Shown in pieces: positions 1-20,882 of a stretch of DNA of 24,000 nucleotides. The stretch's first letter is position 1. Each line of letters begins with the position of its first letter. Under the pieces are notes generated by a model, which saw nothing but the letters and a program-made list of their open reading frames with translations, had not been told where the DNA came from and made no database searches. Source of the stretch: Thermotaleaceae bacterium (GTDB lineage Bacteria; Bacillota; Clostridia; Peptostreptococcales; Thermotaleaceae). The DNA lies in the NCBI GenBank assembly GCA_040797825.1, contig JBFNEZ010000001.1:65048-89047 (forward strand), given 5' to 3'. The position numbers and the translations under genes were made by a program.

Positions 1-1116
1 TACAACTTTGAGTTTTATGGGGATGGCAGAAGTTGATCCTAGAGATTGATGGGCTGGATTTACTGCCCTGCCCACATAAAAATTCACATGGGTACAATCA
101 TGAATTAATAAGCGGGACAACATGGCTGCTCCATTTTTTTCTTTCATTCTATGCTCAATTTCTTTAGTCAATGGCAATCTATAAAAATCCTTTAGCTGAC
201 TTAGACTCTCTCTCATTGTCAAAATCCCTTCTGTGACCAAATCAAAGCCCCGCATATATGTAATGGGTGGAATCTCTTTTGTCAAAGTGGATAGATCTAG
301 TTTTAATTCTGTTTTACACTCTCTTGCTGCAATATTGGCTGCTGTTCCTCCACAGATTACTTTTTTTCCTGGTGCCTCAATAAACTCTTTGAGAATAACC
401 GGATCATTTTCTTTGTGAACAGGAGGACCTGTAAAGATATTCACATATTCTGGTCTTTTTAACTGAATCGTCACTGCTGTTGCATCATCACCAGGTTTTC
501 CATCATATAAATCTCTGCAGGTATTCATGAGAGCTTTGGAGATAAAAACTGAATTTCGATCTTCATATAATCTTTTCAGGTATTGGGCTACATTGTCCCA
601 AGTCCATCCAAGATTAAAGATAACCCCCAGCCCCGCGTGAATTACACCATCACTCACCGCGGTAATAAAATCTCCTTCTTTGAGCTGAAACCGATTTTGG
701 TAAATTCTTTTGCCATCAATCTCTAATTCTTTTCCATAGCTTTTGTAGATCTTTTTTTCCTTCTGGTCATAGCAGAATAGAGGAGGATTATCAAATTCAA
801 CGGTATAAACTTCGCCATTGTTATAGACATAAATGATGGTAAAGGTAGAATAGGCAATTTCTCTTATCTGACAAATTGGTAAGGTAGCTGCAATAGTATT
901 TACCACCTCTGTAATAGACAATCCCTCTTTAAGCATGGTACCTGCTATTTTTGTCGTCATGGTTGCAAGGATATGGGCTTTGACTCCACTTCCCAATCCA
1001 TCAGAAAGTACTACAATCACACCTTCTTCTGTTCGTATTATCTCCACATGGTCTCCGCAAAGCTCTTCTCCAGTTTTATTAAGTTGGTCATAAGCAACAT
1101 CCACAAAATATTTCAT
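1..1116 (-). CDS. PP2C/SpoIIE-family serine phosphatase with a C-terminal extension of unknown function; 3' end cut by the window edge (372 codons, no stop)
   Basis: Not in the ORF track because it has no in-window stop. I checked by hand that the frame stays open from ATG 1116..1114 to position 1. Translation begins MKYFVDVAYDQLNKTGEELCGDHVEIIRTEEGVIVVLSDGLGSGVKAHILATMTTKIAGTMLKEG, and later contains FITAVSDGVIHAG and GDDATAV. These are SpoIIE/PP2C-like metal-binding Asp motifs (DGxGxG, SDG). An AGGAGAAG Shine-Dalgarno lies inside the 3' end of the upstream gene. The ATG directly abuts that gene's TAA (1117..1119). Confidence 0.75.
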   Translation of the reverse strand, partial: MKYFVDVAYDQLNKTGEELCGDHVEIIRTEEGVIVVLSDGLGSGVKAHILATMTTKIAGTMLKEGLSITEVVNTIAATLPICQIREIAYSTFTIIYVYNNGEVYTVEFDNPPLFCYDQKEKKIYKSYGKELEIDGKRIYQNRFQLKEGDFITAVSDGVIHAGLGVIFNLGWTWDNVAQYLKRLYEDRNSVFISKALMNTCRDLYDGKPGDDATAVTIQLKRPEYVNIFTGPPVHKENDPVILKEFIEAPGKKVICGGTAANIAARECKTELKLDLSTLTKEIPPITYMRGFDLVTEGILTMRESLSQLKDFYRLPLTKEIEHRMKEKNGAAMLSRLLIHDCTHVNFYVGRAVNPAHQSLGSTSAIPIKLKVV

Positions 1117-2829
1117 TTATTCTTCTCCTGACTCATTCAATGTTAGGGAGATCAATTTAGTTAAAATGACTTTGGTTTCTGCTGTGGTTTCTCCTAATAG
1201 ACTGGCAATTTCCTGGGCAACCCGCATTTGTTTCATAATAACGTCTTGAGCAGCTTCTACAGTGTTCTTTTTCATACGGAGTAGTTCCTTTTCCCGTTGT
1301 TCCTCTTTGGTTATATCTGTAAGAATGGCCAATATGACATCTTCTTTTTCTAAATAAAGAAGATTTTGAATAACGGTTATTCCTTTATCGGGGATATCTA
1401 CTTTTTTGCCTAATATATCTTTCTTGCTTTCAAATATCTCTATGAAATCTCCATAATCTAATATGGACAATACATAGAGGTCATCCCCCTCATTTTTATC
1501 AACTGCAAGATGATGAAGTGCTGCTGGATTGATATTTTTTACTTTTAAATCTCTATCTACTAAAAAAATGAGGTTAGGAGAGTGTTCAAAAATAAGATTG
1601 GATATGGTCTCACTCTTGGCCCTCATAAAAGGCAGGCACATATAGGTCTGCGCCATGCCATTATAGATTGCTATGGCTTTTTCACGACAGGTAGCATAAC
1701 CACATGTGCCACAATTCAATTCGTCACTTCTCTTTATCTTCCCCATCTCTCTTAAAATACCTTGCAATTTTTCTCCTTGAGGAATCTTTAATGGTATCTT
1801 TCGATTGGTGAAACCTCGTGACAGACAAATGGCTTGGTTTAACCTATCCTCTTGAGGTTTTTCCACGGTTTCCTCTGCATAGCGCCTGATCTTTTTACGT
1901 CGCTTTAAAAAATTGTCTTCATTATGAATAAAGGAGGAACCCGTAATACAGCCATTCTTGCAAAAGAACAACTCAAGTACTGCCGGATCCAGACTTCCTT
2001 CTTTCAGAGATAGCAATGTCTCTCTGGTTGCATCTGCTCCTTCTACACCTATCCATTCCATTCCCTCAGGACAATCAGTGTTTCTTTCTGTAAAAATACC
2101 CTGACTTGGAAAAAGCTTTGCAGCTCTGCTTCCCTCATCATCAAAGGGCATCTCTTCGGCAGAGGGCAGCTTAACATCTTCTAAAGCCATCCATTTCTCA
2201 AGTTCATAGAAGGTAAATACCGAATCAACTGCACCCTCCTTTAAAAACTCTGTGTATTCCACCTTAGCTCCAATACACGGACTAAAGAACACCACCTTGC
2301 ACTGAAATCCATATTTTTCTTTAAGTATTTTTCCATGGGCGATCATAGGCGATATCACTGGGAACAAGAAATCCTTCAGTTCAGGATAATGCTTTTGTAT
2401 CCATAAATTCACCGTAAAACAGGAGCTTGATATGCAATATTTCTGCCTTGTTTCTAAAAGATTCCTTTGATATTCTTTATAGACCCTATCAATTCCTACT
2501 GTGCTTTCTTCAACATATTTGAACCCTAATTGTTTTAATGCACCAGGCAATCTTTTATAATTTTCGCCAAAGTATGCAGCATAGGCAGGATCAACAGAAG
2601 CTATCAGCGTTTTATTATTCTGTAAGTAGGCTTTTGCTTTGATATAATTGTTTCGATTGCTTTGAGGGTTCTGAGGGCATACATTAAAGCATCTTCCACA
2701 GGCAATGCATCTGCTTTGATCAATTTTAGTACCTCTTTCATTAAAAGAAATAGCCTTTACAGGGCAGATTCGAATACATTTATAGCAGTTATTACAACTA
2801 TCTTTAGACAAGGTTAAAACCTTTTTCAT
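1117..2829 (-). CDS. [FeFe]-hydrogenase-like sensory Fe-S/PAS protein (HydS / group C-type architecture)
   Basis: 570 aa. Two CxxCxxCxxxCP ferredoxin motifs are present (CNNCYKCIRICP, CIACGRCFNVCP). H-domain-like motifs are ISSSCFTV (cf. TSCCP), SPCIGAKVE (cf. MPCxxKxxE) and ELFFCKNGCITG (cf. ExMxCxxGCxxG). Then come CGTCGYATC-x16-C (Cx2Cx4Cx16C), a PAS-like segment and a coiled-coil tail. The SD is GGAGGGGG, 6 nt before the ATG. Confidence 0.7.
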   Translation of the reverse strand: MKKVLTLSKDSCNNCYKCIRICPVKAISFNERGTKIDQSRCIACGRCFNVCPQNPQSNRNNYIKAKAYLQNNKTLIASVDPAYAAYFGENYKRLPGALKQLGFKYVEESTVGIDRVYKEYQRNLLETRQKYCISSSCFTVNLWIQKHYPELKDFLFPVISPMIAHGKILKEKYGFQCKVVFFSPCIGAKVEYTEFLKEGAVDSVFTFYELEKWMALEDVKLPSAEEMPFDDEGSRAAKLFPSQGIFTERNTDCPEGMEWIGVEGADATRETLLSLKEGSLDPAVLELFFCKNGCITGSSFIHNEDNFLKRRKKIRRYAEETVEKPQEDRLNQAICLSRGFTNRKIPLKIPQGEKLQGILREMGKIKRSDELNCGTCGYATCREKAIAIYNGMAQTYMCLPFMRAKSETISNLIFEHSPNLIFLVDRDLKVKNINPAALHHLAVDKNEGDDLYVLSILDYGDFIEIFESKKDILGKKVDIPDKGITVIQNLLYLEKEDVILAILTDITKEEQREKELLRMKKNTVEAAQDVIMKQMRVAQEIASLLGETTAETKVILTKLISLTLNESGEE

Positions 2830-2887
2830 GTTATACCCCCTCCATTGCTTATCCTAGGAAACCAGCCAATGTCTCAATGTAGAAAAG

Positions 2888-2929
2888 AAGATTTCCCATT
2901 GTGCCTTTGTAAGCCTATAGGGAAATCTT
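2888..2929 (-). terminator. Weak terminator-like hairpin between acsV and the sensor gene
   Basis: AAGATTTCCC (2888..2897) pairs perfectly with GGGAAATCTT (2920..2929), 10 bp, around a large 22-nt loop. On the minus strand it is followed by CUUUUCU. Confidence 0.25.
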
Positions 2930-2937
2930 TAAACATA

Positions 2938-4872
2938 CTATTCTTTTTCTATTTTACCTGCCACCGATGGAAATCGTTCGATATCCGTATGGGGTAGAAA
3001 ACAAGCAGATATAAATTCATCCATGTAACTAGGATAAGCACTTAGTTCCATATAGGTCATCTGTGCAGCAATTTCCTCTAGCTTTCTACGGGCATCTTCA
3101 CTCATTAGGGTGAGATAGCAACCCATTAAGGAACTGTTACCGATATACATATATTTCTCCCTATCAATATCTGGGAAGAGACCTATTTGTATGGCCCTAT
3201 CGATATCCAGACTATTGCCAATTCCTCCTGCAATATAAACTTTATCAATAATGCTCATATCCATTCCTAAGCTTTCAACGAGGGTACAAGCTCCAGAGTA
3301 TACAGCCCCCTTCGCCTTGATGAAATTATCAATATCAATTTCAGTGACTGTTATATCCTCATCCAAATCCCATTCTTCTTTAAAGGCCAGTACATACTCT
3401 CCGATCCCATATTCATCAAAACGGATTCTGACGGTCTTTAAATCTCGATTCAATTTTCCTCTGCGATCAATTAATCCTAGCATCATCATTTCAGCAATCA
3501 AATCAATAATTCCCGATCCGCATATGCCCTTTGGTTTTTCTTCATTAATGACTTTTAGCCTTGGCTCAAAGGTTACTCTATCGATTATAATTCGTTCAAT
3601 AGCACCTCCTGCAGCCCGCATTCCGCAGCTAATCTCTCCGCCTTCAAAGGCAGGTCCTGCTGAACATGCACAAGTCATAAAGAAGTCCTTATTACCAAAC
3701 ACAATTTCCCCATTTGTCCCCAGATCTATAAACAACACGTTTTCTTCTGAAGCCCATATGCCAGAAGAAAGCACACCTGCAGTAATATCACCACCTACAT
3801 AGCTCGCCACAGAGGGTACGATATAAATGAAGGTCTCTGGATTTGCCTCTAACTCTAGTTCTGAAGTCTTAATAAAGGGTGCTCGTACAAAGGTAGGAAT
3901 ATAGGGTTCTCGTCTTAGGTAATCTGGATAAACACCCAGCAATAAATGACACATGGTTGTGTTGCCTGCTGCTACAAAGGCAATAACTTCATCCTTATGG
4001 ATCCCTGCCTCTTTATACATTTTTCTCAACAAGGGATTAATGGTTTCATGAACAATGGCATGGGTTAGTTTTTCTAGACCATTTTTTTTAGTAGCAAAAA
4101 TAATTCGATTGATTACATCGGCTCCATATTGCATCTGGGCATTTCCAGAGGATGCCTTAGCCAATAATTTCCCTCCGTATAAATCAACAAGACAAGCAGC
4201 TACTGAAGTAGTGCCAATATCTAACGCAATACCGTATAGCCTATTTCTCGTGTCTCCACTTTCAATGTTCACAATCGTTGTACGATTTCCACCCCTAGGG
4301 ATATGGGTAATCGTAAGCTGAAAGTTCTGCTCTCTAAGGATATGGGGAAGGCGCTTCATGATAGGCAGTCTACAAAATACCTTATTATAGCCGAATTGAT
4401 TTCGCAGCTGTCTTTTCATTCTATCCCAATCAGAAATATTGTCATCCAAAGTAGGTAATGGAATTTCCAGATAATCCTTTCTTACATAGGATCCGAAGGT
4501 CATATCATTATCACTAACCTGTTTTTTTGCTCTCTCAAAAATTTCTATTTCTCTTGGTCCTGATAATGCTTCTATTTTCATACCTGCCATGTTTGAACTG
4601 TGTCCCTTGGGGATTTCTATGGTAATGTCTTCTATAATTTTTGTTTCACAAGCAAGAATATAGCCATCTTCCCATTCAGACTCTTTGATGTGAAGGGTCT
4701 TTTGTGTCTTTACATTTCCTTGTAGGAGCTTTACTTTGCATTTTCCGCAGGATCCATTCCCATTACAAGGTGCATCAATAAAAATACTGCCCCCGCGAAT
4801 AACCTCCAACAGATTGTCTCCTTCTTTTGCCATAACTTCCACAGCTTCTGGTACAAATCTTACTTTGAACAT
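2938..4872 (-). CDS. acsV: Corrinoid Fe-S protein reductive activase (RACo / AcsV): 2Fe-2S ferredoxin domain plus ASKHA ATPase
   Basis: The N-terminal plant-type 2Fe-2S motif CNGNGSCGKCKV...C is present, followed by ASKHA phosphate motifs DIGTTS and DLGTNGE. The gene sits after acsB-gcvH. The track start at 4878 (MHM...) is only 2 nt from the GGAGGT SD. The ATG at 4872 (MFKVRF...) has 8-nt spacing and is preferred. Confidence 0.9.
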   Translation of the reverse strand: MFKVRFVPEAVEVMAKEGDNLLEVIRGGSIFIDAPCNGNGSCGKCKVKLLQGNVKTQKTLHIKESEWEDGYILACETKIIEDITIEIPKGHSSNMAGMKIEALSGPREIEIFERAKKQVSDNDMTFGSYVRKDYLEIPLPTLDDNISDWDRMKRQLRNQFGYNKVFCRLPIMKRLPHILREQNFQLTITHIPRGGNRTTIVNIESGDTRNRLYGIALDIGTTSVAACLVDLYGGKLLAKASSGNAQMQYGADVINRIIFATKKNGLEKLTHAIVHETINPLLRKMYKEAGIHKDEVIAFVAAGNTTMCHLLLGVYPDYLRREPYIPTFVRAPFIKTSELELEANPETFIYIVPSVASYVGGDITAGVLSSGIWASEENVLFIDLGTNGEIVFGNKDFFMTCACSAGPAFEGGEISCGMRAAGGAIERIIIDRVTFEPRLKVINEEKPKGICGSGIIDLIAEMMMLGLIDRRGKLNRDLKTVRIRFDEYGIGEYVLAFKEEWDLDEDITVTEIDIDNFIKAKGAVYSGACTLVESLGMDMSIIDKVYIAGGIGNSLDIDRAIQIGLFPDIDREKYMYIGNSSLMGCYLTLMSEDARRKLEEIAAQMTYMELSAYPSYMDEFISACFLPHTDIERFPSVAGKIEKE

Positions 4873-4889
4873 ATGCATATACCTCCAAA

Positions 4890-4924
4890 AAATATCTTTT
4901 CCCCCTGAGGGGGAAAAGATATTT
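4890..4924 (-). terminator. Strong intrinsic-terminator-like hairpin between gcvH and acsV
   Basis: AAATATCTTTTCCCCC (4890..4905) and GGGGGAAAAGATATTT (4909..4924) form a perfect 16-bp stem with a 3-nt loop and a G/C-rich top. On the minus strand the stem runs into a U6 tract that leads straight into the acsV SD (UUUUUUGGAGGU). Confidence 0.5.
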
Positions 4925-4936
4925 ACCTTTTACTTG

Positions 4937-5308
4937 CTAAGCCAACGTTCCTTCGTAACCATCTGCACTTAAAAGTGCATCTAATTCTGATTCATCAGCT
5001 ATTTGTACTTTTACAATCCATGCCTCATAGGGCTCTTCATTGATAAATTCTGGTTCTTCATCAAGTTTTTCATTTACTTCCAATACTTCACCAGAAATCG
5101 GTGCATATAGATCAGAAGCTACTTTGGAGGATTCAACCACACCAAAATCCTTGCCCGCCTTCAATTCATCTCCAACCTCAGGCATTTCTACAAAGAGTAT
5201 TTCACCTAGTTTGGATTGGGCATAGTCAGTAATACCTATTAAAGCGGTATCGCCTTCTACCTTTACCCAAGTATGCTTATCACTATATTTTAAATTCTCA
5301 GGATTCAT
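4937..5308 (-). CDS. gcvH: Glycine cleavage system H-type lipoyl carrier protein
   Basis: 123 aa. It carries the lipoyl-lysine motif [16 protein letters not shown]. The SD is GGAGGG, 7 nt upstream. Confidence 0.93.
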
Positions 5309-5325: not shown

Positions 5326-7452
5326 CTACATAATCGGATCCATGTTTAGCGCTGGATGTCCTTTTTCTGTTAAGAATGCCAATACTGCCTCTGGATCTGT
5401 TGCAATGGTCTCATCGCAAATCATATCCACGAAATTATCGATACCATTTATTTCCTTTACAGTTTCATTTAATTTATCTCTTACATATTCTTTTAATTCC
5501 TTAGGCATCCACACAATTCTTGCAGACCCACCTTCAGCAGATATGAATTTCTTAGAAGAAATGAAGTATCTACCATGACCCATGAATCCAGGTGTTTGAA
5601 CCCCACCACCTGTCATAGAAGCCAATTCTCCAAATCTCATTCCTACAGGAGTCTCTGCTGGATACTCTCTGTTTACAATAATGATTCCATTTGCTTCTGG
5701 CATAATACCAGCAATACACTCAAAGCATCCACAGGATGTCATTGGATCTTCCATCAAGCTGTATAATGTTACCCTGCTAACAGCGCCTTGTGAATTCTCT
5801 TCAACGTATTCATTAACTGATTTCCAGATACCTTTTACTTCATCCTCAACGCCTTCTTTTAGAATAGGCTGACATGGACCTGTCGGATCAAGCTCTTTCG
5901 TTGCTTTTGCATCTAACCAGCTTACGGCACCACATAGACCAAGTCTTTCAGGAGTAACCACACATACGTGGGCAGGCGCAAAGGATTGACATAATTTACA
6001 AGAGTAGAATGTATCTACACTCTCATCGGTTAGAGAAGCCAAACGTGCATCCCTTGCACTGTATCTTGGGATTGCGTATTCTTCTTTTAGAGCTTTTACC
6101 TTGGCTTCATCAGTAACGATGGTCACCTGACATTTGTCAACAACAGTATCAAACTCGTCAAGCATCTTAGCATAAAGAATTTCTCCAAAGTGATTCAATC
6201 TAAAACCTTTTTCGTAGGCTTCTTTACCAATTCGGATCCAAGCTGTATCTCTTTGTCCAACATGCATTACACCTTCTGTATAGTTCATGAAGTAGTGAAT
6301 ACGTCTTTCCAATACTGGCTCAAAATCCTCTTGCATATTTTTTCCAGCTACGTCTACAATTACTGCCAAAGGTAATCTCTTAATATCACCTTCAACACTA
6401 TCCAAATCTGGACCAATAATTTCGATCTTGTGATCTTCTATTTCTGAAAGTTCTTTTTTTCTTAGCAACTCCCAGCATTCAGTTTTAGAACCACCAAATT
6501 CAGCAAGCATATCTTCTTTACGAATTCTTTCACCTTCAAAGGCTGCGGCAAAGGCTACAGGAATCGGAAGCTCGGTAATCTTGATCTTGATACCTCTTGC
6601 TTCTAAGGATGTGGTTACAACCTTGTCAAAATCTTTTTGTGTCAGTAGAAGGGTTGGAACTTCTGTCACTTCTTGATCAGTAATAACTGGGAAACCTAAA
6701 GCAATGGCTCCAGCACCTGCAGAAATTACAAGCTCGCTTAATGGACCAAAGGCATTAACAAAGGCTGGTACTCTGTTCTTTGTGTATTCCATATGCTTAT
6801 CTAATTTTCCTGGCTCCACGCCACCAAAGATTAAGCTGGCACGGATAGCTACAGATACAACGTGAATAACAGAAGTCACATCATAGCCCAGAGGAATAAC
6901 ACGAAGCTCAAGACCCATTTTTACATTGCCTTCAATGGCTTGATCGATGATTTTTCCTACCAAGAAGGTCAGTAAACCCTTTGATTGATAGTCCTTAATT
7001 ACTTTAGCAGCGGTAGCACTATCGGGACACTCTCCAAGCACAACAGCAACCCCAGGAATGTCTCCAGTTACCAAAGGTACACCTAGAGAACGGATGATTG
7101 GGTCCGTGATATGACCAGCACAGGGTGCTTCATAGGGTGCTTCGCTGAGGGCATACTTGATAGCTTCAATGATTTCTGCTGCAACAGCTGTCGCTAATCC
7201 AGCATTTAAGGCTTCTGTCAGCATAAGCTTTTCCACAATTAGGCTTTTTACGATAGCAACAGCCCCTTCTAGTTCTCCCAATGTGGTGATTTTTTGACCA
7301 GTAGCAGCATAAATGACAGGCAATGCATAGGCAGTATCAGGGAAAGCAACCTTATGATCTCTTCCTTTTTGTTCGATGGCTTGCTTTAAAAGGTCTTCTG
7401 CTGCACTTACTGCTTGATTGGAGCCTGTAAAAACGGTTTGAAACAAATTCAT
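5326..7452 (-). CDS. acsB: Acetyl-CoA synthase (A-cluster subunit, ACS alpha)
   Basis: 708 aa. The A-cluster ligand motifs [25 protein letters not shown] and SCGCFEC are present. The SD is GGAGGG. Confidence 0.96.
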
Positions 7453-13917: not shown

Positions 13918-14589
13918 CTAGGCTTCTACAGTTTCCTTACTGGCTTCTCTAAGATTAATTTTTCGTGGATTATTTGATTTTTGGAAGTTTTTCGGATCTC
14001 TAACTTCCATCAGCTTCTCTAATTGTCCCAGTTCCTTCATTCTTTCATAGATTTGAATCCACGCACAGTCATTCTCTTTATTTACTTCGCACTTTTTGTC
14101 CTTTGCCCCGCCACAGGGTCCGTTCACAAGACCCTTGGCACATCGTGTGATTGGACAAATGGATCCTGTCCATCCAAGCTCACACTCGCCACAGGCTCTA
14201 CAGCTTTCTTCAAATTGGCCTACCCGTTCAATTTCCCCGATAAACATTGTATCCACCCCAGGATAGGTCGGAATTTTTACAGCTTTGGCCACAGTCTGCG
14301 TACCATCACCACAAGCTACAGAAAGAATGGCGTCGGCATCCTTTAACTCTTCTTTCATTTTCTTCAGATCTTTTGTTGTTTTTAAGAGGTTACAGGCAGG
14401 ATCCAATACTTTATATCCCGTTACTTCCTTGCCTTCTTCCTCTAACCATGCCTTCAGTTCAAGAATTTCCTCTTCTCCACCCACTTTACAGGTAGTTGCA
14501 CATAAAGAACATCCTGTGATGACCACTTTGCGGCAGTCTTTTAGAAAACTCAATACTTCTTCTTGTGATTTCTTTTGAGAAATAATCAT
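13918..14589 (-). CDS. metV: Methylene-THF reductase small Cys-rich subunit (MetV)
   Basis: 223 aa with Cys clusters CSLCATTC, ACGDG and CRACGECELGWTGSICPITRC...CGG. It is paired with metF, as in clostridial acetogens. The SD is AAGGAGG. Confidence 0.85.
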   Translation of the reverse strand: MIISQKKSQEEVLSFLKDCRKVVITGCSLCATTCKVGGEEEILELKAWLEEEGKEVTGYKVLDPACNLLKTTKDLKKMKEELKDADAILSVACGDGTQTVAKAVKIPTYPGVDTMFIGEIERVGQFEESCRACGECELGWTGSICPITRCAKGLVNGPCGGAKDKKCEVNKENDCAWIQIYERMKELGQLEKLMEVRDPKNFQKSNNPRKINLREASKETVEA

Positions 14590-16279: not shown

Positions 16280-17956
16280 TTAGAATAGTCCTGTAATCAT
16301 ACCATTTTCATCTACATCAATTTTCTCTGCAGATGGTACTTTTGGCAAACCAGGCATTGTCATGATTTCACCTGTTAATGCCACCAGGAATCCTGCCCCA
16401 GCGGAAACCTTCACCTGTCTTACCGTTACTGTAAAACCAGTCGGTCTACCCAACAATGCTGGGTCATCGCTTAAGGAATATTGAGTCTTAGCCATACAGA
16501 TAGGCAGATCCCCAAATCCTAATTTTTCTAATCTTTCAATTTCTTTGGATGCACTTGCAGTGAAGGCCACATCATCGGCACCATAGATTTTTTGAGTAAT
16601 GGCTCTGATTTTTTCTTTTATCGGCAAATTTAATTCATAGGCATAAGTTAGCTTTCCTTCGCCTTTCTCGATGAGCTTGATAACCTGCTCAGCAAGCTGG
16701 ATACCGCCTTCGCCGCCTTTTGCCCACACTTCTGATAAGGCCACGTTTACCCCTAGTTCAGCACATCTTTTTTCTACTAGAGCCAGTTCTGCTTCTGTAT
16801 CTAGCGGGAATCTATTGATAGCTACTACTGCAGGTAAATTGAATACCTTTGTAATATTTTCAACATGCTTCAGAAGGTTTGGAAGTCCTTTTTCTAGGGC
16901 CTCTAAATTTTCTTGATTTAATTCACTCTTTGGCACACCACCGTTATATTTTAGGGCACGTACTGTGGCTACAATAACAACAGCCTCAGGACTTATCCCA
17001 GCTTTTCGACATTTAATGTCTAGGAATTTTTCTGCTCCAAGGTCAGCTCCGAATCCTGCCTCAGTTACTACATAATCTGCAAAATGAGCCGCCATCTTTG
17101 TAGCGATTACAGAGTTACATCCATGGGCAATATTGGCGAAAGGTCCTCCATGCACAAATGCAGGTGTACCTTCTAATGTCTGAACTAAATTTGGTTTTAA
17201 TGCGTCCTTTAATAGGGCAGCCATTGCACCGTGAGCATTTAATTGTTTGGCAGTGATAGGTTGATCATCCTTTGTATATCCTACAATGATATTGCCCAAT
17301 CTTTCCTTAAGATCCATAATATCACTAGCAAGACAAAAAGCAGCCATAACTTCTGATGCAACTGTGATGTCAAATCCATCTTCTCTTGGGATACCGTTTC
17401 CTTTTCCTCCAAGACCGTTTACCATGTTTCTCAGCTGTCTATCGTTCATGTCCATGGCTCTTCTCCAAGTAATCTTTCTTGCGTCAATACCTAGTTGATT
17501 TCCTTGGGTGATATGATTATCCAGCATAGCTGCCAATAAGTTGTTTGCTGCTCCTATTGCATGAAAATCTCCTGTAAAGTGTAGATTGATATCCTCCATA
17601 GGTACCACTTGAGCATATCCACCACCGGCTGCACCGCCTTTTACGCCAAAAACTGGACCTAGAGAAGGTTCTCTTAAGGCAACTAAAGTTGTTTTGCCGA
17701 GTCTAGACAATGCATCGGCAACACCTATAGTTGTCGTAGTTTTACCCTCTCCTGCTGGCGTAGGGTTAATGGCAGTTACCAAAATCATTTTGGCTTTCTT
17801 TCCACCATTGTCTCTCTTGAGTAGGTTGTAGTCAACCTTTGCTTTGTACTTGCCATAGAGTTCTAAATCATCCTCAGTCAGATTTAGTTTCTTGGCTATC
17901 TCTCTGATGTCTTGCAGTTTTGCTTCCTGTGCAATCTCGATATCAGATTTGTACAT
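16280..17956 (-). CDS. fhs: Formate-tetrahydrofolate ligase
   Basis: 558 aa. It starts [12 protein letters not shown] and has the P-loop [14 protein letters not shown]. The SD is AAGGGGGG. It overlaps the cooC stop by 14 nt. Confidence 0.97.
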
Positions 17957-18728
17957 TAGAAACCCCCCTTAGCTTCTCATATATTTTCTCAACATCTATC
18001 TTAATCTCCTCACTTTGCTCGTAAGGCGATAGGTTGGCTCGATCGGAGTTGATCACGTTTTGGTTGTAGTGCATAAAGCCAAGGCAACTTCCATCATCTA
18101 CATGCTCTAAGATGAACTTCTCGTCTTCATCATTTCGAATTTTATTGCCTACCACATATACATTACGAATCCCAATATCTTCCCCCAACTGTTTTACCTT
18201 TCGATAGGTCTGCAAGCTTCTTTCTCCTGGTTCCACAACCACAATAAAAAAGTCTACCCCCCTTGCAGTTCCCCTTCCCAAATGCTCGATTCCAGCCTCC
18301 ATATCCATGATAACCGCATCCTTATTGCCAAGAATCAAATGGGTTGTAAGGGTCTTCAGCAGTACATGCTCAGGACAAACACACCCTGACCCTCCCGTAT
18401 CTACTGTACCCATGGTCAATAGCTTCACACCTTTGTACTCTTTGCAGTAACGTTCAGGTATATCACTAACCTTTGGATTCATCTTAAACATTGTGCCAAA
18501 GGAGCCTGGTTGGGATGCTGTTCTCTCCGCTACCAAATCCTTCATTTCAGAGATCGGTACGATCTCCTCTGCAAGTTCATTGGGAAACCCCAATGCCAAC
18601 GCAAGGTTGGCATCAGGGTCTGCATCCACTGCTAAAACGCTATAACCTTTGTCTACTAGTAGCCGACTCAATACTGCTGAAAATGTTGTTTTTCCTACTC
18701 CACCTTTTCCTGTTATAGCAATTTTCAT
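17943..18728 (-). CDS. cooC: CooC-type Ni-insertion ATPase for CODH maturation
   Basis: It has the P-loop [11 protein letters not shown] and the CxC motif GSGCVCPEH. The track start GTG at 18737 abuts the acsA TAG. The ATG at 18728 ([10 protein letters not shown]) follows GGTGAT by 4 nt and fits the family N-terminus. Confidence 0.9.
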
Positions 18729-18737
18729 TTGAATCAC

Positions 18738-20633
18738 CTATATCCCCAATTTTTGTCTTTTTTCTTCAATACGATTGAGTATTTTATCTGCTAATGCAGT
18801 TGGATCTTCATCAATAAAGAATTTTGCCCCTGTCATTTTTTCTACTCGGTTTGTTAAGATGTCTACCACTTCTGCAGAACCTGTCACAGGAGGCGTGATT
18901 CCCAAGAAGGTATCAATACCTGAAGTTATAACATAGGTACCAATAGCAACAGCCTTTTCAGACATCCATTCTGGAGCTACACCTACAACTGGTAAATCAC
19001 AGTTATCTAATCCTAAATGCTTCGCAACTTCTCCAACAAGAAGGAGGATTCGGCTAATATCTACACAGGAACCCATATGCAGTACTGGCGGAATATCAAC
19101 CAATTCACATACTGTAGCCAAGCCTTGCCCTGCAAGCTTTCTTGCATCCTTACTTAAAAGTCCTGCCTTCGCAGCTGCTTGAGCAGCACATCCTGTAGTT
19201 ACCACGATAACATCGTTGGCAATAAGTTTTTTCATAATTTCAATGTGACTGTAGTCATGCTTGGATTTTGGATTATTACATCCAACGATTCCAGCAGCTC
19301 CTCTTAAAACACCAGCCTTGATAACATCAGCTAATGGTTTTACTGTTCCCATTGGATCAATATGAGGATTGACTACTTTATCCAACTGCTTAATAATTGC
19401 ATCTATGCTATAGCCAACTGTAGCATGGGATTTTGTTTTTGGAATGAATACTTTATCTGCTTTTCTATTTTTAAAGTTTAATATCGCTTCTTTAACAATA
19501 CCTTTTGCAGATTCCATCGCTTTATCTTCATGGAATTCAATATGGGTAGCCCCTGTAATTTTTGCCTTTGGAGATGTGGTGATGAATTTTGTGTGATAAC
19601 ATTCCGTTAATGTAGCTAGAGCAGGGAAGATACACTGTACATCCACGATAACAGCTTCTACAGCCCCTGTTAATACAGCCATTTCCTGTTGATAGAAGTT
19701 ACCTGCTATTTTTACACCGTGTCTCATAGTTACTTCGTTACCAGTACAACACATTCCTGCAAGATTGATGCCCTCTGCTCCAACTTCTTTTGCAAGTTTT
19801 TGCATTTCTGGATCTTCAGCGGCTAAAACTATCATCTCTGAAAGGCTAGGCTCATGACCATGAAGTATAATATTAACCTGATTTTCTTCTAACACCCCTA
19901 GATTTGACTCTGTTTCTCTTGGTACAGGGGTGCCAAATATAATATCACTGAATTCTGTTCCTATCATGGAACCGCCCCAGCCATCGGCCAAAGAAGTTCT
20001 CATTGACATATGCACCAAGCTTTCAGCATCTGCGGTACATCCAATATGTGTTGAGTGAAGGATCGTTGCAATTTCTCTGTCAATGGCTCTTGGCTTGACT
20101 TCAATTTTGTCCCAAATTTTTTGTCTTGGTTCTGGTGCTCTTTCTAAGAATTTAAGCGTACCAAAAGGCTTACCAAATTCATTCAAAGCAATTTCTGCCA
20201 CTTCATGAGCGATATCATAGATATCTCTACCCTCTGTGCTTACGCCCCATTCTGCTGCAAGATTTAGTAATTTCTTTTCGTCTCTTACCTTGTAGTTTCC
20301 ATCCTTGCTGGTCATGTGCAGTACATGGGCAATATCTCTTGCATGGTCTGAGTGGGCTGCAGATCCTGCGGCTACCATTCTGGCATAGTTTCTTCCTACA
20401 ATTACATCAGCAGTGGCCCCACAAATTCCTTTTGTTGCTCCCTTGCCAGCTACGGGACTAACCCTACAAGGACCCATAGCACAAATACGGCAACATACAC
20501 CCTTTTCACCAAAACCGCAGGGTGCCTTCATGGCTTTCTTTCTGTCCCACATGGTTTCTACGCCATCTTTTATGGCTTTTTCTAAAAGCTGCTCCTCAGT
20601 AGTCTGATAAATGGAAATAAATTGTTCGCTCAT
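18738..20633 (-). CDS. acsA: Ni-Fe carbon monoxide dehydrogenase catalytic subunit
   Basis: 631 aa. It has the N-terminal Cys cluster CGFGEKGVCCRICAMGPCRV and the C-cluster-region motifs HGHEPS, CCTGNE, GCNNPK and MGSCVD. The SD is AGGGGGGA. Confidence 0.96.
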   Translation of the reverse strand: MSEQFISIYQTTEEQLLEKAIKDGVETMWDRKKAMKAPCGFGEKGVCCRICAMGPCRVSPVAGKGATKGICGATADVIVGRNYARMVAAGSAAHSDHARDIAHVLHMTSKDGNYKVRDEKKLLNLAAEWGVSTEGRDIYDIAHEVAEIALNEFGKPFGTLKFLERAPEPRQKIWDKIEVKPRAIDREIATILHSTHIGCTADAESLVHMSMRTSLADGWGGSMIGTEFSDIIFGTPVPRETESNLGVLEENQVNIILHGHEPSLSEMIVLAAEDPEMQKLAKEVGAEGINLAGMCCTGNEVTMRHGVKIAGNFYQQEMAVLTGAVEAVIVDVQCIFPALATLTECYHTKFITTSPKAKITGATHIEFHEDKAMESAKGIVKEAILNFKNRKADKVFIPKTKSHATVGYSIDAIIKQLDKVVNPHIDPMGTVKPLADVIKAGVLRGAAGIVGCNNPKSKHDYSHIEIMKKLIANDVIVVTTGCAAQAAAKAGLLSKDARKLAGQGLATVCELVDIPPVLHMGSCVDISRILLLVGEVAKHLGLDNCDLPVVGVAPEWMSEKAVAIGTYVITSGIDTFLGITPPVTGSAEVVDILTNRVEKMTGAKFFIDEDPTALADKILNRIEEKRQKLGI

Positions 20634-20676: not shown

Positions 20677-20705
20677 TTAATAATATTGATTTTTTATTTT
20701 GTTAA
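20677..20705 (-). promoter_or_regulatory. Candidate proximal acs promoter overlapping the Rex box
   Basis: On the minus strand: TTAACA (20705..20700), a 17-nt spacer, then TATTAA (20682..20677). Motif match only, in AT-rich DNA. Confidence 0.2.
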
Positions 20706-20716
20706 TTTGTTAACAT
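20699..20716. promoter_or_regulatory. Candidate Rex (redox-sensing repressor) operator
   Basis: TTGTTAA-TTTG-TTAACAT matches 13 of the 14 specified positions of the clostridial Rex consensus TTGTTAA-N4-TTAACAA. It lies 66-83 nt upstream of the acsA ATG. Confidence 0.55.
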
Positions 20717-20882
20717 AAAGCTATAAAAAAAACAAACTTCACTCTTTTCATTGCTGTATTAACAACTGTTGCTGTTATTACTATGATTTTTAATGAGATT
20801 GGTTTTAAATATAAATCTTGTTATTAATTTAACATTTTTAAAGAAAAAAATATATTCACTCCTGCATCACAAAATTTTCTTT

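What the first reader, a model, noticed from the sequence alone, without database searches (positions are those of the whole stretch)
1..2829. HydS-like sensory hydrogenase plus PP2C phosphatase attached to the tail of the Wood-Ljungdahl cluster
The last two co-oriented genes after acsV encode a candidate sensor and a phosphatase. The sensor has 2x[4Fe-4S] ferredoxin motifs, an H-domain-like core, a Cx2Cx4Cx16C motif, a PAS-like segment and a coiled coil. The phosphatase is SpoIIE/PP2C-type. Its ATG (1116) directly abuts the sensor's TAA (1117..1119), and its SD lies inside the sensor gene, which implies translational coupling. The architecture matches group C putative sensory [FeFe]-hydrogenases (HydS of Thermotoga maritima and Thermoanaerobacter mathranii). 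It also matches HfsB of Thermoanaerobacterium saccharolyticum, which sits next to the phosphatase HfsC and the kinase HfsD. As far as I know, the signalling output of this class has not been established. Physical linkage to CODH/ACS genes suggests an H2- or redox-responsive phospho-switch acting on acetogenesis. That functional link is my inference.
Basis: partly seen in the sequence, partly recalled or inferred. Interest (0 to 1): 0.75.

Follow-up and report, generated by a model that had tools for sequence, protein, structure and literature searches.

The report
Redox sensor–phosphatase pair in acetogenesis cluster
Two overlapping genes inside a bacterial CO2-fixation (Wood-Ljungdahl) gene cluster encode a hydrogenase-derived iron-sulfur sensor and its partner protein phosphatase; the module type is already known, but this version is wired to acetogenesis and has lost residues that normally hold the hydrogen-binding metal site.

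Summary
ORF 1117-2829 (-) encodes a 570-aa protein with two ferredoxin motifs, an [FeFe]-hydrogenase H-domain, a Cx2Cx4Cx16C motif and a PAS domain. ORF 1116->edge encodes a SpoIIE/PP2C phosphatase. Its ATG abuts the sensor's TAA.

This is the known "group C3, phosphatase-linked" putative sensory [FeFe]-hydrogenase pair, equivalent to HfsB/HfsC. The sensor-phosphatase order held in all 84 related loci examined, so the pair is not new.

Three things do appear undescribed:
- A small clade carries the pair between acsV and the CODH/ACS accessory genes. It includes this Thermotaleaceae MAG, Geosporobacter, Clostridium aceticum, Anaerovirgula and Natronincola ferrireducens. Seven of 8 lineages have this layout, against 0 of 80 outgroup loci.
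- The clade lacks the usual hfsA and hfsD partners.
- All 13 clade sequences keep the four H-cluster cysteines. All 13 have replaced Lys358 and Ala230 and shortened the F417-V423 loop, and 12 of 13 have replaced Ser232. These residues shape the di-iron pocket.

H2 sensing is therefore doubtful, and a redox (Fe-S) sensor is as likely. No kinase or STAS partner lies nearby. HfsD is a hydrogenase, not a kinase. A conserved terminator-like hairpin follows acsV, so co-transcription is unresolved. The link to acetogenesis rests on synteny only.

The parts
1117..2829 (-). Sensor gene (HfsB/HydS-like, 570 aa)
   Evidence: ORF. Pfam domains. 100% identical to NCBI protein P0001 from a Thermotaleaceae MAG.
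2668..2808 (-). Two [4Fe-4S] ferredoxin motifs (residues 8-54; eight Cys)
   Evidence: Pfam Fer4/Fer4_7. All eight Cys are invariant in 19 homologues.
1939..2613 (-). [FeFe]-hydrogenase H-domain (residues 73-297)
   Evidence: Fe_hyd_lg_C, E 5.9e-38. Aligned to CpI and HydA1 chains. C137, C185, C290 and C294 correspond to CpI C300, C355, C499 and C503.
2266..2268 (-). Codon of Ala188, the position of CpI Lys358 (the contact of the distal CN ligand)
   Evidence: Alignment SPCIGAKVE versus MPCIGKKFE / MPCTSKKFE. A, T or S in 13 of 13 clade members; K in 106 of 107 outgroup sequences.
1630..1719 (-). Cx2Cx4Cx16C motif (C373, C376, C381, C398), a putative extra [4Fe-4S] site
   Evidence: PF04060, E 1.2e-8. 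The four Cys are invariant. The motif is described for HydS enzymes in PMC8163306.
1444..1593 (-). PAS domain (residues 413-462)
   Evidence: PAS_8, 23.9 bits against a cut-off of 21.8. Mean identity within the clade is 0.66, against 0.42 among outgroup sequences.
1120..1299 (-). C-terminal helical segment (residues 511-570) with the near-invariant motif KQM..AQEI..LGETTAETK
   Evidence: Invariant columns. Proposed as the docking or output element; this is inference.
1114..1129 (-). Coupling junction: SD AGGAG (1129-1125), TAA (1119-1117), ATG (1116-1114)
   Evidence: Sequence. Abutting or overlapping stop and start codons occur in relatives.
1..1116 (-). Phosphatase gene (HfsC-like), first 372 of 391 codons
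   Evidence: Translation. Full length taken from L088.
460..1029 (-). SpoIIE/PP2C catalytic domain (residues 30-219)
   Evidence: Pfam SpoIIE, E 3.7e-18. Foldseek hits 5mqh and 5ucg, E 1e-13 to 1e-14. Asp22, 39, 156, 210 and 211 are conserved.
1..459 (-). C-terminal alpha/beta domain of the phosphatase (residues 220-372; the last 19 aa lie outside the window)
   Evidence: No Pfam hit. Model pLDDT 89.7, with no significant PDB match. Full-length library hits always carry it C-terminal to PP2C.
2836..2843 (-). SD (GGAGGGGG) of the sensor gene
   Evidence: Sequence.
2881..2929 (-). Terminator-like hairpin (10-bp stem AAGATTTCCC/GGGAAATCTT) plus CTTTTCT, 9 nt after the acsV stop
   Evidence: Folding. 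Conserved in all 7 WL-linked lineages, with 3 compensatory pairs.
2938..4878 (-). acsV (corrinoid activation/regeneration protein), the upstream neighbour
   Evidence: NCBIfam NF040756, 1057 bits.

Best explanation
What it is. The two genes are a lineage-specific variant of the known HfsB/HfsC module ([FeFe]-hydrogenase group C3, 'phosphatase-linked'). In a small clade of Peptostreptococcales the module has been placed inside the Wood-Ljungdahl supercluster, between acsV and the accessory genes DUF3786, DUF8180, DUF3842 and CooT.

Proposed mechanism. The sensor carries up to four Fe-S sites: two N-terminal [4Fe-4S] clusters, the [4Fe-4S] of the H-domain, and the Cx2Cx4Cx16C site. Their redox state is set by low-potential electron carriers, and by H2 only if a di-iron subcluster is still bound. 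That state is relayed through the PAS domain and the invariant C-terminal helix to the PP2C phosphatase, which is made in 1:1 amounts by translational coupling. The Mn/Mg-dependent phosphatase then dephosphorylates a Ser/Thr phosphoprotein encoded elsewhere. This tunes the CODH/ACS branch, which is the cell's main electron sink.

Shown: domain content, conserved ligands and catalytic residues, gene order and its conservation, the changed pocket residues, and purifying selection.

Inferred: cofactor content, the signal, the sensor-phosphatase contact, the substrate, and any effect on acetogenesis.
For: Identity of the proteins:
- Pfam, NCBIfam, PDB and fold matches.
- A PP2C gene lies downstream of the sensor gene in 84 of 84 related loci, with abutting or overlapping stop and start codons in the ten loci inspected, 0-3 nt apart at most.
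- The class is named in HydDB and described as a sensor plus phosphatase subunit in Ruminococcus albus (PMC6776011).

Wiring to the WL cluster:
- The order acsV-sensor-PP2C(-DUF3786)<-DUF8180-DUF3842-CooT occurs in the window/L088, Geosporobacter, C. aceticum, Anaerovirgula, N. ferrireducens and two metagenome lineages.
- None of 80 outgroup loci has this linkage (Fisher p = 1e-9).
- The nearest acs clusters without the pair have acsV directly followed by the same accessory genes.
- GC and GC3 match the neighbouring genes. pN is 0.19 against pS 0.79. dN/dS is 0.10-0.26.

Redox rather than H2 sensing:
- K358 is A, T or S and A230 is D in 13 of 13 clade members. S232 is A or T in 12 of 13. P301 is lost in 11 of 13. 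The F417-V423 loop is 2-3 aa shorter. All Cys ligands are kept.
- These residues line the [2Fe]H cavity (PMC10147833).
- The usual order of conservation is reversed. The H-domain is less conserved than PAS inside the clade (0.47 against 0.66); in the outgroup it is 0.47 against 0.42.

Electron-sink theme: elsewhere the pair sits next to a Fd-hydrogenase (23 loci), AdhE or Fe-ADH (4), NuoE-like genes (4) or MTHFR (1).
Against: - No experiment or expression data bear on function.
- A conserved terminator-like hairpin separates acsV from the sensor gene, so the pair may be its own transcription unit.
- The clade linkage probably reflects a single ancestral rearrangement, so 7 of 8 is not seven independent events.
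- One clade member, Anoxynatronum (L087), carries the same pocket changes but is not linked to acs. The sequence changes and the WL location are therefore separable.
- No kinase, STAS or other candidate substrate is nearby.
- Lys189, the residue after the lost Lys, is K or R in all 13 and might substitute for it.
- All four Cys ligands, including the bridging C503 equivalent, are retained. That is compatible with a complete H-cluster.
Confidence: 0.55

Rival explanations
1. This is a genuine H2 sensor. The H-domain binds a complete H-cluster, and the pocket substitutions only tune its potential and kinetics, as in TmHydS and TamHydS. H2 partial pressure switches the phosphatase, so the cell turns CO2 reduction up when H2 is available.
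For: - All four H-cluster Cys, including the bridging Cys, and E361 are kept.
- The characterised sensory enzymes already tolerate changes at C299, M353 and M497 and still bind the H-cluster (PMC8163306).
- K or R is always present one residue after the lost Lys.
- H2 is the natural substrate of acetogenesis.
- C. aceticum encodes several [FeFe]-hydrogenases, so maturases should be present (PMC4600107).
Against: - K358 is kept in 106 of 107 outgroup sensors but in 0 of 13 clade members. A230, S232, P301 and the F417-V423 loop are changed as well.
- The H-domain is the less constrained part in this clade.
- No biochemical data exist for any member of the clade.
Confidence: 0.3
2. The adjacency has no functional meaning for acetogenesis. 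The pair is its own transcription unit that landed next to acsV in one ancestor. It regulates something else, such as hydrogenase or alcohol dehydrogenase genes as in Ruminococcus and Thermoanaerobacterium.
For: - A terminator-like hairpin follows acsV in all seven lineages.
- Linkage is confined to one clade and is absent in 80 outgroup loci, including the acetogen genus Terrisporobacter (L020, L025).
- Anoxynatronum has the same variant next to an Fe-ADH gene instead.
- In the canonical systems the phenotypes concern H2 and ethanol (PMC5707799).
Against: - The pair is flanked on both sides by CODH/ACS genes. It is followed after 15 nt by DUF3786, which in other genomes sits directly after acsV.
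- The arrangement survived divergence down to 48% sensor identity.
- An equally strong hairpin lies between gcvH and acsV inside the cluster. Such hairpins therefore do not delimit function here.
Confidence: 0.2
3. The 'sensor' is mainly an electron-transfer or low-activity hydrogenase subunit. It supplies low-potential electrons to AcsV/CFeSP for corrinoid reactivation, and the phosphatase is incidental.
For: - It lies directly after acsV, whose product needs a low-potential reductant.
- The protein has up to four Fe-S sites.
- The PF04060 motif also occurs in AcsC.
Against: - The PAS domain and the obligatory, translationally coupled PP2C partner occur in 84 of 84 loci.
- The proton-relay Cys299 is absent.
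- Characterised relatives have very low activity (PMC11376134).
- Most acs clusters work without this protein.
Confidence: 0.07

Closest known systems
HfsB/HfsC of the hfsABCD operon (Thermoanaerobacterium saccharolyticum); [FeFe]-hydrogenase group C3 'phosphatase-linked' (HydDB)
   Same: The sensor has the same domain order (2x[4Fe-4S], H-domain, Cx2Cx4Cx16C, PAS, conserved C-terminal helix; 38% identity to L026). The phosphatase is the same ~390-aa PP2C plus C-terminal domain (43% identity). The gene order is the same and the stop and start codons overlap.
   Different: There is no hfsA (2Fe-2S thioredoxin-like) gene upstream and no hfsD hydrogenase downstream. The neighbours are acsV and DUF3786 instead. 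Lys358, Ala230 and Ser232 and the F417-V423 loop are changed.
HydS of Ruminococcus albus (group C sensor in the HydA2/AdhE cluster)
   Same: It is a putative sensor subunit plus a Ser/Thr phosphatase subunit next to an electron-sink pathway. The cluster is strongly regulated with H2 level (PMC6776011).
   Different: The regulated neighbours there are a Fd-hydrogenase and AdhE. Here they are CODH/ACS genes. No expression data exist for this clade.
TmHydS (Thermotoga maritima, M2f) and TamHydS (Thermoanaerobacter mathranii, M2e/group D)
   Same: They have two N-terminal clusters, an H-domain without the Cys299 proton relay, altered M353 and M497, and the C-terminal four-Cys motif (PMC8163306). 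TmHydS also has a PAS domain.
   Different: Both bind a spectroscopically verified H-cluster. TamHydS belongs to the M2e subclass and not to the PAS-type M2f subclass of TmHydS (PMC8163306); that M2e lacks a PAS domain is from memory. Whether they retain Lys358 was not checked here. The window clade lacks it.
SpoIIE / RsbU-type PP2C phosphatases of partner-switching modules
   Same: These are the best Pfam and structural matches. The metal-binding Asp motifs are conserved. Regulation through an attached or associated sensor module is typical of them; this point comes from established knowledge.
   Different: No STAS (SpoIIAA/RsbV) or anti-sigma kinase gene is nearby. The extra C-terminal alpha/beta domain is unique to this family.
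Eukaryotic hydrogenase-like proteins Nar1/NARFL (from memory)
   Same: They have an H-domain scaffold that keeps the cluster-binding cysteines but not a di-iron site. This is a precedent for an Fe-S-only hydrogenase-like protein.
   Different: They are cytosolic Fe-S assembly factors, not signalling proteins. No sequence comparison was made here.
HoxBC-HoxJ regulatory [NiFe]-hydrogenase (Ralstonia eutropha)
   Same: It is a hydrogenase-derived sensor that controls a phosphorylation cascade (PMC5707799).
   Different: It is an unrelated [NiFe] enzyme. Its output is a histidine kinase and response regulator, and its mechanism is established.

Membership tests
[FeFe]-hydrogenase group C (PAS-type, M2f; HydS/HfsB) | H-domain homologous to the [FeFe]-hydrogenase large subunit | tested here: met
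   Fe_hyd_lg_C, E 5.9e-38, residues 73-297. PDB hits to HydA1 and CpI.
[FeFe]-hydrogenase group C (PAS-type, M2f; HydS/HfsB) | Four Cys ligands of the H-cluster (CpI C300, C355, C499, C503) | tested here: met
   C137, C185, C290 and C294 are invariant in 120 sequences.
[FeFe]-hydrogenase group C (PAS-type, M2f; HydS/HfsB) | N-terminal 2x[4Fe-4S], C-terminal Cx2Cx4Cx16C, and a PAS domain | tested here: met
   Pfam Fer4 x2, PF04060 and PAS_8. The feature list comes from PMC8163306.
[FeFe]-hydrogenase group C (PAS-type, M2f; HydS/HfsB) | Proton-relay Cys299 not conserved | tested here: met
   Ser136 lies at that position.
[FeFe]-hydrogenase group C (PAS-type, M2f; HydS/HfsB) | [2Fe]H pocket residues (Lys358; Ala230-Pro231-Ser232; the F417-V423 loop) | tested here: not met
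   Ala188, Asp80 and Ala82 occupy these positions, and the loop is 2 aa shorter. The same pattern holds in 13 of 13 clade members, while K is kept in 106 of 107 others. The pocket residues are listed in PMC10147833.
[FeFe]-hydrogenase group C (PAS-type, M2f; HydS/HfsB) | Binds an H-cluster and reacts with H2 | not testable with these tools
   This needs FTIR/EPR on matured protein.
Group C3 'phosphatase-linked' (HydDB) | Ser/Thr phosphatase gene co-located with the sensor gene | tested here: met
   The PP2C ATG abuts the sensor's TAA. A PP2C gene is downstream in 84 of 84 related loci.
Group C3 'phosphatase-linked' (HydDB) | Falls in the C3 sequence cluster of the HydDB classifier | not testable with these tools
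   HydDB was not available. All close homologues found are PP2C-linked.
hfsABCD operon | hfsA (2Fe-2S thioredoxin-like) gene directly upstream | tested here: not met
   tblastn found none in the window or in the tested WL-linked loci L001, L002, L085, L086 and L088, and the Pfam gene tables of L107 and L108 list no 2Fe-2S_thioredx gene. One is present upstream in about 50 of 80 outgroup loci.
hfsABCD operon | hfsD [FeFe]-hydrogenase gene directly downstream | tested here: not met
   DUF3786 follows instead. An hfsD-like gene follows in 23 of 80 outgroup loci.
PPM/PP2C phosphatase, SpoIIE/RsbU type | PP2C fold and conserved metal-binding Asp residues | tested here: met
   SpoIIE, E 3.7e-18. Model pLDDT 87.5; 5mqh E 2.6e-14. 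D39, D156, D210 and D211 are invariant and D22 nearly so. Assigning these Asp residues to metal binding comes from knowledge of PPM motifs.
PPM/PP2C phosphatase, SpoIIE/RsbU type | Partner-switching context (STAS substrate, anti-sigma kinase) | tested here: not met
   No such Pfam family appears within 8-10 kb in L001, L002, L086, L088, L107 or L108.
Wood-Ljungdahl (acs) operon | Conserved co-oriented position inside the cluster | tested here: met
   7 of 8 clade lineages have it. Accessory genes flank the pair on the far side.
Wood-Ljungdahl (acs) operon | Co-transcription with acs genes | tested here: inconclusive
   A terminator-like hairpin follows acsV. A similar hairpin occurs inside the cluster at 4890-4924. 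No convincing promoter was found. RNA data are needed.

The most novel reading that the evidence does not exclude
The clade's H-domain no longer holds a di-iron site, or holds an altered one. The protein would then be a hydrogenase-derived Fe-S sensor of ferredoxin redox state, or possibly of CO. Together with its PP2C partner it would form the first post-translational (Ser/Thr phospho) switch acting directly on the CODH/ACS or corrinoid-reactivation machinery. That would also give the first identified regulatory target for any group C 'sensory hydrogenase'.
Probability: 0.2. Interest if true: 0.8.

Novelty: new variant of a known kind. Interest (0 to 1): 0.5.

Why it matters
Group C 'sensory' [FeFe]-hydrogenases are abundant in anaerobes, yet nobody knows what they signal to (PMC11376134).

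In this clade the module is physically embedded in one well-defined pathway. That narrows the search for its target to the CODH/ACS branch, and culturable hosts exist (C. aceticum, C. formicaceticum).

The clade-wide loss of Lys358 and neighbouring pocket residues is a natural experiment. It can show whether these proteins need the di-iron site at all to signal.

For acetogen engineering, a redox-responsive phospho-switch on the WL pathway would be a new control point. Regulation described so far is mostly transcriptional; Rex boxes are also present here at 20699-20835.

If the link is only positional, the finding is an ordinary member of a known, widespread gene pair.

Tried and rejected
- Exact-protein look-up of the window's sensor found no contig. 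A 98.8%-identical Logan contig, reached through the phosphatase, supplied the left extension.
It returned only 35-43% relatives, not the closest genomes. It served as an outgroup sample only.
- C-terminal domain of the phosphatase: there is no Pfam hit. A confident model (pLDDT 89.7) had no significant PDB match (best E 3e-3, TM below 0.41; generic Rossmann-like hits). A profile search of 1.84 billion representatives found it only behind PP2C domains or in short fragments. Its function is unknown.
- Paralogue test: a search with the canonical Natronincola peptidivorans sensor listed no named second copy from C. aceticum, Geosporobacter, Anaerovirgula or N. ferrireducens in the top 120. The one close NCBI hit came from a metagenome assembly. 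The question is unresolved.
- Kinase or STAS partner: none in any flank.
- Rfam: no RNA family in the window.
- Rex box: none upstream of the sensor gene.
- Promoter scan: no site between the hairpin and the sensor start, and fewer hits than in shuffles overall.
- Literature: no paper combined HydS, phosphatase and Wood-Ljungdahl. The C. aceticum genome paper ends the cluster at acsV. DUF3786 is essentially unmentioned.
- Recent horizontal insertion is rejected: GC and GC3 equal the neighbours.
- Pseudogene is rejected: pN is far below pS.

Full report
**1. Observation**

The minus strand of the window carries a complete Wood-Ljungdahl cluster. The gene order is acsA (18738-20633), cooC, fhs, fchA, folD, a 223-aa ORF in the metV position (13918-14589; no family match), metF, lpdA, cooC, acsD, acsC, acsE, acsB (5326-7452), gcvH (4937-5308) and acsV (2938-4878).

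After a 108-nt gap comes a 570-aa ORF at 1117-2829. Immediately after it, an ORF starts at ATG 1116-1114 and leaves the window after 372 codons. TAA 1119-1117 abuts that ATG, and AGGAG (1129-1125) lies 8 nt upstream, inside the first gene.

Pfam finds the following in the first protein:
- two Fer4 motifs (residues 8-54);
- Fe_hyd_lg_C (73-297, E 5.9e-38);
- PF04060 (371-400), which is C373-x2-C376-x4-C381-x16-C398;
- PAS_8 (413-462), just above its cut-off.

In the second protein Pfam finds SpoIIE (30-219, E 3.7e-18). An AlphaFold model of the phosphatase (pLDDT 87.5) matches the SpoIIE phosphatase domain best (5mqh, E 2.6e-14). The Asp residues expected for metal binding are invariant in 40 homologues.

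The 'coiled coil' was not tested.

**2. Source and left extension**

The sensor is 100% identical to an NCBI protein from a Thermotaleaceae MAG. A Logan contig that is 98.8% identical over 1913 nt (L088) continues to the left:
- the phosphatase is 391 aa, so the window lacks only 19 residues;
- a DUF3786 gene follows after 15 nt with its own SD;
- a strong bidirectional terminator comes next;
- DUF8180, DUF3842 and CooT lie on the opposite strand.

No kinase, STAS or anti-sigma gene is present there or in the equivalent flanks of six related genomes.

**3. The pair is a known class**

[quoted passage not shown] The same sensor-plus-phosphatase description is given for Ruminococcus albus (PMC6776011). 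[quoted passage not shown]

In 80 loci from a genome scan, plus four from exact look-ups, a homologue of the whole 390-aa phosphatase lies downstream of the sensor gene every time. It is directly adjacent in all but one locus (L016). Stop and start codons abut or overlap in all ten loci inspected.

The Thermoanaerobacterium saccharolyticum locus (L026) shows the canonical order hfsA-hfsB-hfsC-hfsD. HfsD there is a Fer4 plus Fe_hyd_lg_C hydrogenase, not a kinase.

**4. Linkage to acs genes is clade-specific but robust**

None of the 80 outgroup loci (35-43% sensor identity; about 66 have at least 2 kb upstream) has any acs gene nearby. About 50 have an hfsA-like gene directly upstream, and 23 have an hfsD-like hydrogenase directly downstream. 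Other downstream neighbours are AdhE or Fe-ADH, NuoE-like genes and, in one case, MTHFR. All of these belong to electron-sink pathways.

The 13 sequences that are at least 46% identical to the window protein behave differently. Of the eight lineages whose context I could read, seven have acsV-sensor-PP2C. All seven are followed by the inverted DUF8180-DUF3842-CooT block or, in Anaerovirgula, reach the contig end just after DUF3786. DUF3786 follows the PP2C gene in six of them; C. aceticum lacks it. The seven are:
- the window/L088;
- Geosporobacter ferrireducens;
- Clostridium aceticum;
- Anaerovirgula multivorans;
- Natronincola ferrireducens;
- two metagenome lineages.

The exception is Anoxynatronum sibiricum, where the pair sits next to an Fe-ADH gene. 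Seven of 8 against 0 of 80 gives p = 1e-9, but this probably reflects one ancestral event.

A scan with AcsV shows what the nearest acs clusters without the pair look like. There, acsV is followed directly by CooT-DUF3842-DUF8180 or by DUF3786. In the window clade the pair is thus inserted between acsV and the accessory block, not appended to the end of the cluster.

Composition equals that of the neighbours, and both genes are under purifying selection.

**5. The H-domain of this clade is atypical**

I mapped the family onto CpI through HMMER alignments and tabulated 120 sequences.
- All eight ferredoxin Cys, the four H-cluster Cys (C300, C355, C499, C503), E361 and the four C-terminal Cys are invariant.
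- Cys299 is absent, as in other sensory enzymes (PMC8163306).
- All 13 clade members have replaced Lys358 (A, T or S, against K in 106 of 107 others).
- All 13 have replaced Ala230 with Asp.
- 12 of 13 have replaced Ser232 with A or T.
- 11 of 13 have lost Pro301.
- All carry a 2-3-residue deletion in the loop equivalent to F417-V423.

These positions contact the distal CN ligand or line the [2Fe]H cavity (PMC10147833). From memory, K358 substitutions abolish H-cluster assembly in model enzymes.

Domain-wise identities show a reversal. In the outgroup the H-domain is better conserved than PAS (0.47 against 0.42). In the clade it is less conserved (0.47 against 0.66).

I read this as a relaxed or changed constraint on the di-iron site and a conserved signalling part. 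It does not prove loss of the H-cluster. K or R is always present at the next position, and the bridging Cys is kept.

**6. Transcription**

A hairpin (stem AAGATTTCCC/GGGAAATCTT, then CTTTTCT; 2881-2929) starts 9 nt after the acsV stop. It is conserved in all seven linked lineages, with three compensatory pairs. It looks like an intrinsic terminator.

A related hairpin occurs after acsV in one relative without the pair (L092) but not in another (L089). An even stronger hairpin lies between gcvH and acsV (4890-4924).

These structures therefore occur inside the cluster. They may attenuate transcription and not delimit operons. I found no convincing promoter or Rex box in the gap. Co-transcription remains open.

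**7. Mechanism and rivals**

The best-supported reading is an Fe-S redox sensor (possibly an H2 sensor) that controls its stoichiometric PP2C partner through the PAS domain and the invariant C-terminal helix. The phosphatase would act on an unknown phosphoprotein, and in this clade the module would be dedicated to the CODH/ACS branch.

Rivals are a true H2 sensor (0.3), a merely positional association (0.2) and an electron-donor role for AcsV (0.07).

The phosphatase's 170-aa C-terminal domain is a confident alpha/beta fold. It has no Pfam or PDB relative and is restricted to this architecture. Its invariant Cys and His residues suggest a ligand or metal site, but this is speculation.

**8. 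Verdict**

The gene pair belongs to a known, widespread class. The WL-embedded clade with a remodelled H-cluster pocket and without hfsA/hfsD appears undescribed in the literature I could search. It is a new variant of a known kind, of moderate interest.

Noticed in passing
L029:4220-5677, L044:12908-14497, L062:12887-14443 (also L033, L035, L045, L048, L060, L078): In 9 of 80 outgroup loci the gene right after the HydS-PP2C pair encodes a 485-529-aa protein with no Pfam hit. It has sub-threshold similarity to TnpB/Cas12f (PDB 9nzp E 1e-6; NCBIfam TnpB and Cas12f2 E 1e-7 to 1e-11). The Zn-ribbon Cys are kept. The RuvC-I Asp is replaced, the RuvC-II Glu is present in only 3 of 9, and the RuvC-III Asp is not conserved. 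This is a syntenic, apparently nuclease-dead TnpB-like protein, possibly an exapted regulator.
   Followed up: partly
window 4890-4924: A 16-bp perfect hairpin followed by TTTTTT lies between gcvH and acsV, inside the WL cluster. It is terminator-like on the coding (-) strand and also scores on the + strand.
   Followed up: partly
window 20699-20716 and 20818-20835: Two Rex-box-like sites (TTGTTAANNNNTTAACAA with 1 and 2 mismatches) lie in the ~900-nt non-coding stretch upstream of acsA. This matches the Rex site reported upstream of the C. aceticum cluster (PMC4600107). None lies upstream of the sensor gene.
   Followed up: partly
L088:1989-3874; L089:8983-10623; L092-L095; L097, L102-L104: A recurrent accessory gene set (DUF3786, DUF8180, DUF3842, CooT) follows acsV in many acs clusters, in variable order and orientation. 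In the window clade the DUF8180-DUF3842-CooT block is inverted relative to L089 and L092. The functions of three of the four genes are unknown, and DUF3786 is essentially absent from the searchable literature.
   Followed up: partly
window 1-459 (-) and L088:1440-1973: The phosphatase's C-terminal ~170-aa alpha/beta domain has no Pfam or PDB relative. It carries invariant CGGT, TEG, (C)TH and N-x-AH motifs, which suggests a ligand- or metal-binding site. It was found only fused behind PP2C.
   Followed up: partly
L108:8001-9718: In one WL-linked metagenome lineage the sensor gene is split (531 aa plus a 45-aa ORF). This is either a frameshift pseudogene or an assembly error.
   Followed up: no
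L026:3546-5061: hfsD of T. saccharolyticum strain NTOU1 is split into two overlapping ORFs (339 and 185 aa). This is either a frameshift or a sequencing error in the draft assembly.
   Followed up: no
L016:10001-19052 (Clostridium ganghwense): The phosphatase gene lies 2 kb downstream of the sensor gene, with an hfsA-like gene between them. An MTHFR gene and a pterin-binding methyltransferase-like gene follow. This is a second, independent association of the module with C1 metabolism.
   Followed up: no
L105:1-8888: A canonical hfsA-hfsB-hfsC set (71% identical to the N. peptidivorans sensor) lies directly after an HdrABC/MvhD(FlpD)-like gene cluster with NAD-binding subunits. The contig comes from the same metagenome assembly (SWCA01) that holds an acs cluster without the pair (L089).
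   Followed up: no
window 17943-17956: The cooC ORF (17943-18737) overlaps the start of fhs (16280-17956) by 14 nt. This is another translationally coupled junction in the cluster.
   Followed up: no
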